Origin: Escherichia phage atuna
Sequence record: NC_049819.1
Reading direction: 5' to 3' (one strand)
DNA length: 50,732 nucleotides
This document shows positions 2,339-47,045 of this stretch, in pieces. Each line of letters starts with the position of its first letter. The first letter of the stretch is position 1. Under the pieces are notes generated by a model, which was given only the letters and a program-made list of their open reading frames with translations, searched no databases and had not been told where the DNA came from. A program made the translations under genes and the position numbers.

Positions 2339-2594
2339 AGTGGATCATTCCGTGCTGAAAATTCCACGAATCGACAAACTCTTGCATGTCATTTCTGATT
2401 TGTTCGTGCCATTTTTCAAGCGGGAGTTTTCTTGTCTCCTCAAAGCTCATATCTAATGCGCTTGAAAATTCCCACGGATCGCAATCAATCATCTTTTTCA
2501 CGTTAGGGTTTTTATCAAGTGCATCGCACACCATAGCGCGAAATAACAACCACTCGCCAGTTTCATTTAAATAAACGCTTCTCTCTTTTTCCAT
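2337..2594 (-). CDS. Hypothetical protein (85 aa)
   Basis: ORF with stop embedded in conserved motif. Confidence 0.45.
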   Translation of the reverse strand: MEKERSVYLNETGEWLLFRAMVCDALDKNPNVKKMIDCDPWEFSSALDMSFEETRKLPLEKWHEQIRNDMQEFVDSWNFQHGMIH

Positions 2595-2598
2595 CGTG

Positions 2599-3351
2599 TT
2601 AGCTCCGTTTGCGTGCGCGACGTTCGGTTACAGAAGGGCAAATATCGCTGATCTTAACGTATCGCGTTTTCTGCTCCTCGCCTTCTTTAAGTTTGCGCAT
2701 GACAAAAATCACGCTTCCCTTGTTGTTGCCCTGCACAGGCTCGCCAGTCAATCCAGACACAAAGGCGATTCTTCCGGTGCGGGAGTATTCTACTCCACCC
2801 TCTTCGTAAACCTCGCCAGTGATCCAGATGATTTCAGCCGCGTTTTTCTGCGCCTCATAAAACCATGCTGTAGAGTTGTCTGCTGGCAACAAAACATCAA
2901 TTTGGTTGTTGTGCTCCATTTGCTCAATTGCTTTCTTGATAAATGGAGTTGGGTTGCTGTACGGCGGGTTAAGCCACACGTGCTTGTTGCTACCCCACCA
3001 ACGCTTTAAGCAGTTTGTCTCCTTGCTATAGAACTTCTCGCAAACTGCGTTTTCCTGGCTTGCTGCCGCGTCGAGATCGTATTCACCAAATTCTGATTCC
3101 ATCCACTCCACGATCTCTTGAGGTGTGCTCCACATATCGCGCACAACGTCCGGCGTAGTGCTTCCAGCGTATCGGTTTCCGCTTACCTTATAATATTGAT
3201 TTGGCTTTACTGCCTGGTAATGGCCTCCAGTTGCAAGGGCATTCCCTATAAACGTTTCTCTCTCCAACTGCTCAAAGCTAACGAATGCGTTATGGGTGTC
3301 TTTATCTAAAATATCTTTAGCCATTTTCATTTCTCCGCTATTAAAAGCCAT
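2599..3351 (-). CDS. dam: DNA N6-adenine methyltransferase (phage Dam-type)
   Basis: WLNPPYS catalytic motif (N/DPPY) in 250-aa protein; position next to helicase/VRR-NUC as in T1-like phages; GATC specificity is inferred, not seen. Confidence 0.7.
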   Translation of the reverse strand: MAFNSGEMKMAKDILDKDTHNAFVSFEQLERETFIGNALATGGHYQAVKPNQYYKVSGNRYAGSTTPDVVRDMWSTPQEIVEWMESEFGEYDLDAAASQENAVCEKFYSKETNCLKRWWGSNKHVWLNPPYSNPTPFIKKAIEQMEHNNQIDVLLPADNSTAWFYEAQKNAAEIIWITGEVYEEGGVEYSRTGRIAFVSGLTGEPVQGNNKGSVIFVMRKLKEGEEQKTRYVKISDICPSVTERRARKRS

Positions 3352-9719: not shown

Positions 9720-10172
9720 TTAGAAGGGTATATCGTCGTCAAAGTCAATCGGAGGCTGATTGCTTTGCTGTGGTTGCTGTTGAGTATTTTGTTGCTGTTG
9801 CTGTTGTGGTTGCCACCAGCCTCCTTGCGTTCGCTGTTGATATTGTTGCTGGCTTTCCCCACGCTGGCTAAATAGCAAGTTTGCAAATCCGCCAGGCTGC
9901 ACGGTGCTGTAAATCTTTCCGTTGTATTCTCGCGTTTCAACCCGCAAGGTGTCGCAGGAAACAGAAATAACCTTACCAACCTGGAACGCCTCAGCATACC
10001 AACCATTCAGGCCGTCTGTTTTCGCGTTAAAGAAAAATACATAGTTTGTATACTGCCAATTGCCTTCACGGTCTTTATATCGTTCGGAAAGCTCAACAAC
10101 ATATAGCGTGCTGCCGTTAGGCATTTGCTTTACTTTTGGCTCTTTTCGGATCTCACCTGTAATAACGTGCAT
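9720..10172 (-). CDS. ssb: Single-stranded DNA-binding protein
   Basis: Gln/Pro-rich tail ending DFDDDIPF (canonical SSB C-terminus); start at internal Met MHVITG preceded by AGGAG. Confidence 0.85.
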   Translation of the reverse strand: MHVITGEIRKEPKVKQMPNGSTLYVVELSERYKDREGNWQYTNYVFFFNAKTDGLNGWYAEAFQVGKVISVSCDTLRVETREYNGKIYSTVQPGGFANLLFSQRGESQQQYQQRTQGGWWQPQQQQQQNTQQQPQQSNQPPIDFDDDIPF

Positions 10173-10215
10173 TTTGTTTTCTCCTATGACAAAAGGGGCG
10201 CAAGCGCCCCGTTTA

Positions 10216-10884
<669 letters not shown>

Positions 10885-45875: not shown

Positions 45876-45883
45876 TTAATCTG

Positions 45884-45904
45884 GCGGCGTTTTGCCGCCT
45901 TTTA
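45884..45904 (+). terminator. Hairpin + T-run (possible attenuating terminator)
   Basis: ggcggcgttttgccgcc followed by TTTT, then SD gaggtgg. Confidence 0.45.
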
Positions 45905-45917
45905 AATGAGGTGGAAA

Positions 45918-46034
45918 ATGATAGATAAAGCTATTGATTTCTTTTTTTATTCGATTATTGGCGCGGTTGGTTTTTTGGTTACTGCTGCTGGCCTGGCTAT
46001 TATCTTGGCTGTTATTAAGGGAGTTATGCGATGA
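45918..46034 (+). CDS. Small membrane peptide (38 aa), not in ORF track
   Basis: ATG after GAGGTGG; hydrophobic FFFYSIIGAVGFLVTAAGLAIILAVI; stop overlaps next start (ATGA). Confidence 0.3.
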   Translation: MIDKAIDFFFYSIIGAVGFLVTAAGLAIILAVIKGVMR

Positions 46035-46255
46035 GTCAGGACGGTTTTTTTGAGCGCCTTCAAATGGCAGAAGATGCCGGACTAAATAAAGAGGCGGCGC
46101 TTGAAGTGGCATATAAAATTAAGACTCTTGATGAGGCTTTAGGTGATATGGATATGGATCTTGAATCAAGCGCAATATTTGCAGATCCCACTATGATTGT
46201 TAATGATTGTGGATGCGATTTCGATCCTAGTTGTCCGCGCTGTTTTCCGTTTTGA
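46031..46255 (+). CDS. Small acidic protein (74 aa)
   Basis: Asp/Glu-rich, C-terminal Cys cluster CGCDFDPSCPRC; coupled to downstream methyltransferase-like gene. Confidence 0.45.
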   Translation: MSQDGFFERLQMAEDAGLNKEAALEVAYKIKTLDEALGDMDMDLESSAIFADPTMIVNDCGCDFDPSCPRCFPF

Positions 46256-46265
46256 GGTAATGACG

Positions 46266-46976
46266 ATGTATAAAGGTTTAATATTCTCCCTATTTGATGG
46301 ATCTGGTAAAGCCGTTAAAGATTGGGCTGATAATGGATATAAGTGCATTTGCTTTAATGCTGACGGTGGCGATCACGGTGATTACCAGTCAGTGCGCATA
46401 CAGCATGAGAATATCGAATACGTTAACGTCTGGATTGATGAAAGATTTTACCACCGCGCGCGCTGGGAGGAATGGGGCATTCCTGACTTTATTATGGCAT
46501 TTCCGCCGTGCACCGACCTTGCAAATAGCGGATCTCGCCATTGGGCCAAAAAACGCCTTGAGAATCCATCGTTCCAGGATGAGGCCGCCGACACTTGCAG
46601 AATCGCGGCTGATATAGCTGATTATTTCGGTGTTCCTTACATGATCGAAAATCCGGTTGGCAAGTTGTCAACGTTATGGCGAAAGCCTGATTATACGTTC
46701 CATCCGTGCGATTACGCTGGCTATCTGCCGGAAGATGATAAACATCCCGACTTCCCTGATATTATTCCGGCACGGGATCGCTATTTTAAGAAAACGTGCC
46801 TCTGGACTGGCAACGGCTTTGTTATTCCTCCTCGCGCTTTAATCCTGCCGAAAGAGGAAGACAAAGATAATCCAGGCTGGGCCAAAACTGGCGGTAAGTC
46901 ATCGCGCACAAAGATGATCCGCTCCCTCACTCCGCGCGGCTTTGCTCGCGCCGTCTTTGAGTCAAACTCAAAATAG
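46266..46976 (+). CDS. C5-cytosine methyltransferase-like protein (compact, about 237 aa)
   Basis: Motif I IFSLFDGSG, motif IV-like FPPC (catalytic Cys), motif VI-like ENPVG; no obvious large target-recognition domain; start ATG 46266 chosen for SD spacing. Confidence 0.55.
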   Translation: MYKGLIFSLFDGSGKAVKDWADNGYKCICFNADGGDHGDYQSVRIQHENIEYVNVWIDERFYHRARWEEWGIPDFIMAFPPCTDLANSGSRHWAKKRLENPSFQDEAADTCRIAADIADYFGVPYMIENPVGKLSTLWRKPDYTFHPCDYAGYLPEDDKHPDFPDIIPARDRYFKKTCLWTGNGFVIPPRALILPKEEDKDNPGWAKTGGKSSRTKMIRSLTPRGFARAVFESNSK

Positions 46977-46991: not shown

Positions 46992-47045
46992 GCCAGGTGT
47001 AAAAACCTGGCATAATCACATCGAACAAACAAAGGAGATCTGATC

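What the first reader, a model, noticed from the sequence alone, without database searches (positions are those of the whole stretch)
45918..46976. Compact C5-cytosine-methyltransferase-like protein co-transcribed with an acidic Cys-cluster protein and a membrane peptide
46266-46976 carries motif I (IFSLFDGSG), a PC-type catalytic motif (FPPC) and an ENV-like motif (ENPVG), but is only about 237 aa with no obvious large target-recognition domain. It is translationally coupled to an upstream 74-aa acidic protein (46031-46255, CGCDFDPSCPRC) and a 38-aa hydrophobic peptide. With the Dam-type enzyme at 2599-3351 the phage would carry two DNA methyltransferase folds. The small size and the acidic partner raise the possibility of an anti-restriction module or a non-canonical modification activity rather than a standard Dcm.
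Basis: partly seen in the sequence, partly recalled or inferred. Interest (0 to 1): 0.6.

Follow-up and report, generated by a model that had tools for sequence, protein, structure and literature searches.

The report
Compact phage cytosine-5 DNA methyltransferase
This is the small "Dcm-like" cytosine methyltransferase of T1-like coliphages, already shown in a 91%-identical relative to methylate DNA and set off the bacterial retron Ec86 defence, while its two small upstream neighbours appear to be unrelated early genes, so the finding is real but ordinary.

Summary
The three ORFs and all quoted motifs are at the stated coordinates. The window is a Warwickvirus (Drexlerviridae) genome about 99.7% identical to SECphi27.

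The protein is 91% identical, without gaps, to the "Dcm-like" protein of phage KarlJaspers. Its close relative K42 Dcm was shown experimentally to raise 5mC on retron Ec86 msDNA and to trigger that defence. So the methyltransferase is already known.

The "module" idea is not supported:
- The 74-aa acidic gene is adjacent only in close relatives.
- It is split from the methyltransferase gene by an HNH gene in some phages.
- It lies 2.3-2.8 kb away in T1-like phages.
- It is undetected in 54 of 82 related methyltransferase loci.
- K42 Dcm works alone.

One small lead remains. The acidic protein's conserved C-terminus (acidic run, then F/I/M-P-F/W) resembles the SSB C-terminal tip, DDDIPF.

The parts
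45883..45899 (+). Terminator-like hairpin (GGCGGC-GTTTT-GCCGCC followed by TTTT) just upstream of the three-gene group
   Evidence: 7 pairs, 6 of them G-C. Sequence read.
45918..46034 (+). 38-aa single-pass hydrophobic peptide of unknown function. GAGGTGG lies upstream, and its stop overlaps the next start (ATGA).
   Evidence: tblastn finds it in only 62 phage records, all close relatives. No Pfam, PHROG or NCBIfam hit.
46031..46255 (+). 74-aa acidic protein (pI 4.05): a conserved three-helix N-terminal part plus a low-confidence C-terminal tail with CxCx5CxxC, ending in FPF. Function unknown.
   Evidence: phrog_9323 E 2e-37, unknown function. 448 phage records, those listed being about 47-52 kb genomes. 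Alignment. AlphaFold pLDDT 66.5, helices at 6-15, 20-27 and 33-41.
46254..46257 (+). GAGG Shine-Dalgarno of the methyltransferase gene, overlapping the upstream stop codon
   Evidence: In KarlJaspers the same GAGG has its third base 9 nt upstream of the ATG. That is the position where two K42 retron-escaper mutants carry a point mutation.
46266..46976 (+). 236-aa orphan C5-cytosine DNA methyltransferase ('Dcm-like'; phrog_757), orthologue of the retron Ec86/Eco1 trigger
   Evidence: for the protein; for the published work.
46281..46307 (+). Motif I (IFSLFDGSG), the AdoMet-binding loop after strand beta-1
46500..46511 (+). Motif IV (FPPC) with the catalytic Cys82
   Evidence: C82 is invariant in 53 sequences. 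C82 was one of four residues mutated together (C82A/E128A/K175A/K176A) in the K42 quadruple mutant that no longer raised msDNA 5mC.
46647..46661 (+). Motif VI (ENPVG), with Glu128
   Evidence: E128 and P130 are invariant.
2599..3351 (-). Context only: the phage's second methyltransferase, a T1-type Dam (N6-adenine)
   Evidence: Pfam PF05869 E 1e-61, phrog_111 E 3e-87.

Best explanation
46266-46976 encodes a stand-alone (orphan), AdoMet-dependent DNA cytosine-C5 methyltransferase of a large, phage-specific family of very small enzymes.

By analogy with all C5 methyltransferases, Cys82 of the PC motif attacks C6 of a flipped-out cytosine, Glu128 of the ENV-like motif protonates N3, and the methyl group of AdoMet is transferred to C5. 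DNA recognition must rely on a short insert of roughly 40 residues instead of a large target-recognition domain, as in DNMT3.

The most likely target is the Dcm/EcoRII site CCWGG. The most likely benefit is keeping rapidly replicating phage DNA fully methylated, and so protected from CCWGG- and CCNGG-cutting restriction enzymes, whatever the host's dcm status. The known cost is that the same activity methylates the DNA stem-loop of retron Ec86 (Eco1) msDNA and switches on that abortive-infection system.

The peptide and the acidic protein upstream are separate small early genes that share the transcript and are translationally coupled. They are not needed for methylation.

What is shown and what is inferred:
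- Shown here: fold, motifs, orthology, gene layout.
- Shown in the literature for a close orthologue: 5mC formation and retron triggering.
- Inferred: CCWGG specificity, the anti-restriction role, and independence from the neighbouring genes in this particular phage.
For: Fold and motifs:
- AlphaFold model with pLDDT 94.5 and pTM 0.91.
- The listed top 50 Foldseek PDB hits are all DNMT3-family (3A/3B/3C) catalytic domains, best E 3.5e-8.
- BFVD matches are phage cytosine methylases.
- C82, E128 and P130 are invariant in 53 homologues of 33-57% identity.

Orthology to the characterised enzyme:
- 214/236 identical with no gaps to KarlJaspers Bas06 'Dcm-like C5 cytosine methyltransferase'.
- K42, which is 95.4% identical to Bas06 genome-wide, has a 711-bp dcm with C82, E128, K175 and K176. 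The gene length and the residue numbers are the same as here.
- Four retron-Ec86 escaper phages all disrupt that gene. Two carry a mutation 9 bp upstream of the ATG, which falls in the GAGG Shine-Dalgarno seen here and in KarlJaspers.
- K42 Dcm alone, but not the C82A/E128A/K175A/K176A mutant, raises 5mC in msDNA by LC-MS.
- Mutating the CCTGG site in the msDNA stem-loop abolishes defence.
- The published version is cited as Wang et al., Cell Rep 2024;43:114857.

Site statistics:
- The window does not avoid CCWGG (120 observed, 128 expected) or GATC (306 observed, 302 expected).
- T7, used as the comparison phage (taken as methyltransferase-free from my own knowledge, not searched here), has 2 against 56 and 6 against 141.
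- The window strongly avoids several unprotected palindromes.
Against: - No Pfam or NCBIfam hit. A family profile finds no methyltransferase among PDB sequences. hhalign to E. coli Dcm lines up the PC-to-ENV stretch, but at only 3% probability.
- The nearly invariant family Asp at position 31 (motif II region) is Asn in this clade.
- Target specificity has not been measured directly in anything I could read. The CCWGG assignment in the preprint rests on the name 'Dcm' plus msDNA mutants.
- It also leaves a paradox. The experiments were done in MG1655, which carries its own dcm gene, yet msDNA 5mC was low without the phage enzyme.
- A roughly 40-residue recognition insert is small for a 5-bp site.
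- The BASEL study found no simple link between Drexlerviridae methyltransferase genes and restriction resistance.
- Non-avoidance of CCWGG could equally be explained by host Dcm.
Confidence: 0.85

Rival explanations
1. The three genes form a functional module. The acidic Cys-cluster protein would be a specificity or regulatory subunit, or a DNA-mimic anti-restriction partner, of the TRD-poor methyltransferase, and the membrane peptide would anchor or regulate the pair.
For: - Overlapping or abutting stop and start signals join all three ORFs.
- The acidic gene sits 8-26 nt upstream of the methyltransferase gene in the closest Drexlerviridae relatives, and also in Klebsiella phages with only 43-48% identity.
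- From my own knowledge, two-subunit C5 methyltransferases exist (M.AquI, M.EcoHK31I).
Against: - The acidic-protein homologue is not detected in 54 of 82 methyltransferase loci.
- It is separated by 111-244 nt (room for an extra ORF) in others, and lies 2.3-2.8 kb downstream in T1-like loci.
- An HNH gene is inserted between the two genes in JLBYU10.
- The methyltransferase is in 1524 phage records, against 448 for the acidic protein and 62 for the peptide.
- The Cys cluster is not conserved in the family.
- K42 Dcm alone is active in vivo.
- AlphaFold gives no confident fold for the tail.
Confidence: 0.07
2. The enzyme carries out a non-canonical reaction. Candidates are a different C5 adduct (for example carboxymethyl), m5C on RNA/tRNA as DNMT2 does, or methylation with a specificity or substrate form unlike host Dcm (short motif, single-stranded or hairpin DNA).
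For: - The recognition insert is tiny.
- msDNA is poorly methylated in MG1655, which carries dcm, unless the phage enzyme is present. This hints that the two enzymes do not have the same substrate range.
Against: - LC-MS against a 5mC standard detected 5mC.
- The best structural matches are DNA enzymes of the DNMT3 type.
- CCWGG is not avoided in the genome.
- These phages plate on K-12 (hosts listed). From my own knowledge, that argues against dense methylation in McrBC-sensitive RmC contexts.
Confidence: 0.1
3. The motif resemblance is coincidental, or the protein is an inactive relic.
For: No Pfam or NCBIfam hit. Asn replaces the family's near-invariant Asp31.
Against: - Confident C5-methyltransferase fold.
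- Invariant catalytic Cys and Glu across 53 homologues.
- 1175 clusters at 50% identity match at E<=0.001, indicating a large, conserved family.
- The 91%-identical clade member with the same Asn31 belongs to the lineage shown to be active.
Confidence: 0.01

Closest known systems
Dcm of phage K42 / KarlJaspers (Bas06), the trigger of retron Ec86 (Eco1). Sources: Wang et al., bioRxiv 10.1101/2023.08.16.553469; Cell Rep 2024;43:114857.
   Same: - Same gene: 711 bp and 236 aa, 91% identical to the Bas06 protein without gaps.
- Same C82, E128, K175 and K176.
- Same GAGG Shine-Dalgarno.
- Same upstream peptide and acidic-protein genes and the same downstream genes.
   Different: 22 substitutions, mostly in residues 23-70. 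The genus differs (Warwickvirus against Hanrivervirus). Nothing has been tested in this phage itself.
Catalytic domain of mammalian DNMT3A/DNMT3B
   Different: Only 14-18% identity. The phage enzyme has no regulatory domains and is about 50 residues shorter than even the DNMT3 catalytic domain. DNMT3 recognises CpG and works as a dimer or tetramer; neither is known here.
E. coli Dcm / M.EcoRII (CCWGG, Pfam PF00145)
   Same: Presumed same product (5mC), and possibly the same site. The PC-to-ENV stretch and an RxLTPR motif IX-like stretch can be lined up.
   Different: 472 aa against 236 aa. There is no significant sequence similarity (BLASTP E 2.5; hhalign probability 3%). The phage enzyme has no large TRD, no vsr partner, and is not a member of PF00145 by Pfam's threshold.
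Heterodimeric C5 methyltransferases M.AquI / M.EcoHK31I (from my own knowledge)
   Same: A small polypeptide encoded next to, or overlapping, the catalytic gene.
   Different: In those enzymes the second polypeptide supplies conserved methyltransferase motifs or part of the TRD and is always present. Here the neighbour is dispensable, is not co-inherited, and is largely unstructured.
C-terminal tip of bacterial SSB (DDDIPF; PMC5872125)
   Same: The acidic protein family ends in an acidic stretch followed by F/I/M-P-F/W...DFDPSCPRCFPF here, and ...DDDDYIPW or ...FDDGIPF in variants. Pro73 is invariant. The phage's own SSB ends in DFDDDIPF.
   Different: This is motif resemblance only. The protein has no OB fold and binding was not tested. 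In this window the acidic run is interrupted by the Cys cluster.

Membership tests
C5-cytosine DNA methyltransferases (structural superfamily) | Class I AdoMet-methyltransferase fold with C5-methyltransferase topology | tested here: met
C5-cytosine DNA methyltransferases (structural superfamily) | Motif I (FxGxG-type AdoMet loop), motif IV (Pro-Cys with the catalytic Cys) and motif VI (ENV with Glu), in that order | tested here: met
   F10-D-G-S-G14, P81-C82 and E128-N-P-V131. C82 and E128 are invariant in 53 sequences.
C5-cytosine DNA methyltransferases (structural superfamily) | Formation of 5-methylcytosine in DNA | not testable with these tools
   Reported by LC-MS for K42 Dcm and lost in the C82A/E128A/K175A/K176A mutant. 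The window protein is 91% identical to the Bas06 orthologue.
Pfam PF00145 DNA_methylase | Score above Pfam's gathering threshold | tested here: not met
   No hit at E<=1. Only 4 of 53 family members give weak hits, best E 0.0039.
E. coli Dcm / M.EcoRII family | Detectable sequence homology, including the large CCWGG-reading TRD | tested here: not met
   BLASTP E 2.5. hhalign probability 3%. 236 aa against 472 aa.
E. coli Dcm / M.EcoRII family | Methylation of the inner C of CCWGG | not testable with these tools
   Indirect evidence only: msDNA CCTGG mutants, and CCWGG is not avoided in the window, unlike in T7.
phrog_757 (compact phage 'DNA methyltransferase') | Full-length profile match | tested here: met
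   E 2.1e-84, residues 2-235. 1524 phage records hold a homologue. 1175 clusters at 50% identity match, mostly 210-260 aa.
Retron Ec86/Eco1 trigger (phage Dcm) | Orthology to the K42 dcm gene: same locus, length and catalytic residues | tested here: met
   Searches compared. The K42 sequence itself is not available; Bas06 was used as a proxy.
Retron Ec86/Eco1 trigger (phage Dcm) | Activation of the retron by this phage's own protein | not testable with these tools
   No experiment on SECphi27-type Dcm was found in the papers I could read.
   Record counts are 1524, 448 and 62.
Zinc-ribbon / zinc-knuckle protein (74-aa ORF) | Four conserved metal-ligand Cys in a confidently folded knuckle | tested here: not met
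   The Cys are invariant among close relatives but are replaced by acidic residues in T1-like members. The tail has pLDDT 50-70 and no secondary structure. Metal binding in this sub-clade is not excluded.
SSB-Ct mimic (74-aa ORF) | C-terminal acidic run plus hydrophobic-Pro-aromatic carboxy terminus that binds SSB-partner pockets | tested here: inconclusive
   The motif is present and conserved. A single such ORF end is not improbable by chance: my estimate is about 0.4 expected among 349 ORFs. Binding is not testable here.

The most novel reading that the evidence does not exclude
The 74-aa acidic early protein is a decoy of the SSB C-terminal tail. Its conserved helical head would present an acidic tail ending in F/I/M-P-F/W that occupies the SSB-Ct binding pockets of host proteins (for example ExoI, RecQ, PriA, or the chi subunit of Pol III). 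This would divert or block them during infection, independently of the methyltransferase next door. A second, weaker open point is that the compact methyltransferase may not share host Dcm's substrate range.
Probability: 0.15. Interest if true: 0.5.

Novelty: already known. Interest (0 to 1): 0.15.

Why it matters
It matters little as a discovery. The gene is annotated as a Dcm-like methyltransferase in curated phage genomes, and a close orthologue has been characterised as the trigger of retron Ec86/Eco1.

The value of this check lies in four points:
1. It ties this SECphi27-type genome to that published mechanism.
2. It shows that standard profile libraries (Pfam, NCBIfam) miss a family present in about 3% of sequenced phage records. 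A 'no profile hit' test would therefore wrongly dismiss it.
3. It shows that the neighbouring small genes should not be read as partners.
4. It points out that the enzyme's true recognition sequence has apparently never been mapped directly.

Tried and rejected
Searches that found nothing useful:
- Pfam and NCBIfam scans of all three proteins gave nothing.
- A family-profile search of PDB sequences returned only chance hits.
- BLASTP and hhalign against E. coli Dcm were not significant.
- Literature searches for direct methylome data on these phages, and for phage SSB-tail mimics, found nothing relevant. The Druantia preprint was irrelevant.

An 11-sequence alignment worked.
A shallower alignment of database hits gave only a low-confidence model, so no fold search was run on it.
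- The Cell Reports and Molecular Cell papers are not in the library. The preprint and later citing papers were used instead.

Ideas considered and dropped:
- The CCSGG depletion (3 observed, 20.6 expected) is not a signature of the methyltransferase. It is not seen in the pooled early-region loci of other phages that carry the methyltransferase (O/E 0.93-0.94), so it is reported only as an aside.
- The longer annotated start (ATG 46203, 257 aa) is not the true start. Most homologues are 227-235 aa, KarlJaspers is annotated at 236 aa, and the escaper mutations hit the GAGG before the short start.

Full report
**What is there**

The window is a complete-genome-sized piece of a Drexlerviridae phage. 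The 1.5 kb around the finding is 99.7% identical to Escherichia phage SECphi27, and 96-99% identical to many Warwickvirus isolates.

On the + strand, inside a long run of small early genes (about 42.8-49.8 kb), lie three tightly packed ORFs:
- A 38-aa hydrophobic peptide (45918-46034), preceded by GAGGTGG.
- A 74-aa acidic protein (46031-46255), with pI 4.05 and four Cys.
- A 236-aa protein (46266-46976).

The first two ORFs overlap as ATGA. The stop of the second overlaps a GAGG that lies 8 nt before the third start. A strong terminator-like hairpin (45883-45899) precedes the group, and nothing promoter- or terminator-like separates its members.

**What the 236-aa protein is**

Curated profile libraries miss it: Pfam and NCBIfam give no hit. 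PHROGs places it full-length in phrog_757, 'DNA methyltransferase' (E 2e-84). A plain sequence search of the PDB gives only a borderline match of motifs I-IV to DNMT3B (E about 0.05).

The family is large. It includes 3033 clusters at 90% identity, 1175 clusters at 50% identity and 1524 of 50,697 phage records. Nearly all members are 210-260 aa.

In an alignment of 53 members only 33-57% identical to the query, C82, E128, P130, P147, Y173, W180 and P188 are invariant, and the FPPCT and ENP blocks are almost so.

With that alignment AlphaFold gives a confident model (pLDDT 94.5, pTM 0.91):
- Foldseek's listed top 50 PDB hits are all DNMT3-family (3A/3B/3C) catalytic domains (best E 3.5e-8).
- Viral structure matches are phage cytosine methylases.

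So it is a true C5-methyltransferase catalytic domain with only about 40 residues left over for DNA recognition.

It is not a recognisable sequence relative of E. coli Dcm. BLASTP gives E 2.5, aligning only an RxLTPR stretch. hhalign lines up the PC-to-ENV region at 3% probability. A family profile finds no methyltransferase among PDB sequences, and only 4 of 53 members touch PF00145 weakly.

**It is already known**

Curated BASEL genomes annotate the gene as 'Dcm-like C5 cytosine methyltransferase'. The window protein is 214/236 identical, without gaps, to that of KarlJaspers Bas06.

A preprint (10.1101/2023.08.16.553469), later published as Wang et al., Cell Rep 2024;43:114857 (citations seen), studied phage K42, which is 95.4% identical to Bas06. 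It reports the following:
- All four mutants escaping retron Ec86 disrupt a 711-bp dcm gene. [quoted passage not shown]
- Dcm expressed alone is toxic only in cells carrying the retron.
- A C82A/E128A/K175A/K176A mutant is inert.
- msDNA from Dcm-expressing cells contains much more 5mC by LC-MS.
- Changing the CCTGG in the msDNA stem-loop abolishes defence.
- 34 of 35 Ec86-sensitive phages encode Dcm.

Gene length and all four residue numbers are identical in the window protein by my count on the translation. Base 451 of the window gene is a G.

In KarlJaspers the base 9 nt upstream of the ATG is the third base of the same GAGG found here. The escaper point mutations are therefore best read as Shine-Dalgarno knock-downs. 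This also settles the true start at 46266, rather than the 257-aa start that many GenBank records use.

Later papers treat 'phage Dcm methylates msDNA and activates Eco1 filaments' as established.

**Mechanism, and how sure each step is**

- Shown here: fold, catalytic motifs, orthology and gene layout.
- Shown in the literature for the orthologue: 5mC formation in vivo that depends on the catalytic residues, and retron triggering.
- Inferred from the general chemistry of the superfamily: Cys82 attack on C6, Glu128 protonation of N3, and base flipping.
- Inferred and less certain: the target site.

CCWGG is plausible. The window keeps CCWGG (120 observed, 128 expected) and GATC (306 observed, 302 expected) at expected frequency. 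T7, taken as methyltransferase-free (my own knowledge), has 2 against 56 and 6 against 141. The window also strongly avoids several 6-bp palindromes, including AAGCTT 0 of 16, GATATC 0 of 14, GGCGCC 0 of 17 and TCCGGA 1 of 20.

Three points count against certainty:
- Host Dcm could explain the CCWGG tolerance equally well.
- A roughly 40-residue recognition insert is small for a 5-bp site.
- The preprint's experiments were done in MG1655, which carries its own dcm gene. Yet msDNA there was poorly methylated without the phage enzyme. The two enzymes may therefore not have the same substrate range.

No direct methylome of such a phage turned up. The BASEL authors saw no simple link between these genes and restriction resistance. 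I put about 0.85 on 'orphan C5 DNA methyltransferase, orthologue of the retron trigger' and about 0.55 on CCWGG as the site.

**The neighbours**

The 74-aa protein belongs to phrog_9323/9085, of unknown function. It is found in 448 phage records, those listed being about 47-52 kb genomes. Only 99 database clusters were found.

Across 82 methyltransferase loci, covering 80 viral contigs plus two GenBank phages, tblastn and an iterated HMM search gave this picture:
- It lies 8-26 nt upstream of the methyltransferase gene in the closest relatives.
- It lies 111-244 nt upstream, with room for an extra ORF, in others.
- It lies 2.3-2.8 kb downstream in three T1-like loci.
- It was not detected in 54 loci.

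In JLBYU10 an HNH endonuclease gene sits between the two genes.

The family alignment shows a conserved helical N-terminal 45 residues and a variable tail. The CxCx5CxxC cluster of this clade is replaced by a plain acidic run in T1-like variants. AlphaFold predicts three short helices and an unstructured tail, at low confidence (pLDDT 66.5).

The 38-aa peptide is detectable only in 62 close relatives.

Together with the fact that K42 Dcm works alone, this argues that the three genes are neighbours in an early operon and not a module. I give the module idea about 0.07.

**A small lead**

All 17 aligned members of the acidic family end in hydrophobic-Pro-aromatic after acidic residues. Examples are ...DFDPSCPRCFPF...DDDDYIPW and ...FDDGIPF, and Pro73 is invariant. 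This resembles the SSB C-terminal tip DDDIPF, which docks many genome-maintenance proteins (PMC5872125, seen).

Only two of 349 ORFs of at least 40 aa in the window end this way. The other is the phage's own SSB (9720-10223, - strand; phrog_44 E 2e-22), which ends DFDDDIPF. One such ending could arise by chance. Its conservation across the family is what makes it worth a test. This is speculation at about 0.15.

**Verdict**

However, it is already annotated, and a close orthologue has been functionally characterised. The proposed partnership with the acidic protein and the peptide is not supported. Novelty: already known. Interest: low.

Noticed in passing
window 46031-46255; window 9720-10223 (- strand): The 74-aa acidic protein family ends in an acidic stretch followed by F/I/M-P-F/W, resembling the SSB C-terminal tip DDDIPF. 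The phage's own SSB (phrog_44) ends in DFDDDIPF. These are the only 2 of 349 ORFs of at least 40 aa in the window with such an ending.
   Followed up: partly
whole window: There is strong avoidance of several 6-bp palindromes: AAGCTT 0 of 15.7, GATATC 0 of 14.3, GGCGCC 0 of 16.7, TCCGGA 1 of 20.4, AGGCCT 1 of 16.4 and GCCGGC 0 of 10.3. CCSGG is also avoided (3 of 20.6). GATC and CCWGG are at expectation. A 50-kb E. coli K-12 sample has CCSGG at expectation, and T7 lacks both GATC and CCWGG. The CCSGG depletion is not seen in the pooled early regions of related phages.
   Followed up: partly
window 46992-47011: Immediately after the methyltransferase stop codon there is a 6-bp-stem hairpin, GCCAGG-N8-CCTGGC. 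Its two arms are each a CCWGG site (positions 46993 and 47006). No T-run follows, so the scan did not call it a terminator.
   Followed up: no
window 46203-46976; L002 (JLBYU26) 2549-3156: There are annotation artefacts in public records. Many give the methyltransferase a 257-aa form starting at ATG 46203, overlapping the upstream gene by 53 nt. Some records label the 74-aa acidic ORF 'putative cytosine DNA methylase', the 38-aa peptide 'TamB translocation/assembly module', and the 75-aa ORF upstream 'polyribonucleotide nucleotidyltransferase'.
   Followed up: partly
L085 (JLBYU10) 2034-2561; also hit H191 (phage Kalemo): An HNH (homing-type) endonuclease gene is inserted between the acidic-protein gene and the methyltransferase gene in otherwise near-identical phages. 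This marks the junction as an insertion hot-spot.
   Followed up: partly
window 46356-46358 (residue 31 of the methyltransferase): The family's nearly invariant Asp31 (end of strand beta-2, motif II region, expected to bind the AdoMet ribose) is Asn in this protein. It is also Asn in KarlJaspers, the clade whose enzyme was shown to be active.
   Followed up: no
GenBank MG0656xx records: About 20-40 records named 'Campylobacter phage' (host C. jejuni) carry this coliphage-type locus at 85-88% nucleotide identity and have Drexlerviridae-like or rV5-like genome sizes. They look like coliphages, or like mislabelled or contaminated records.
   Followed up: no
P0210 (453 aa), P0224 (401 aa), P0245 (414 aa), P0260 (563 aa); BFVD A0A6J5SE15 (1397 aa): A few family members carry the compact methyltransferase domain fused to other regions, including a helicase/UvrB-like protein in an uncultured phage.
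   Followed up: no
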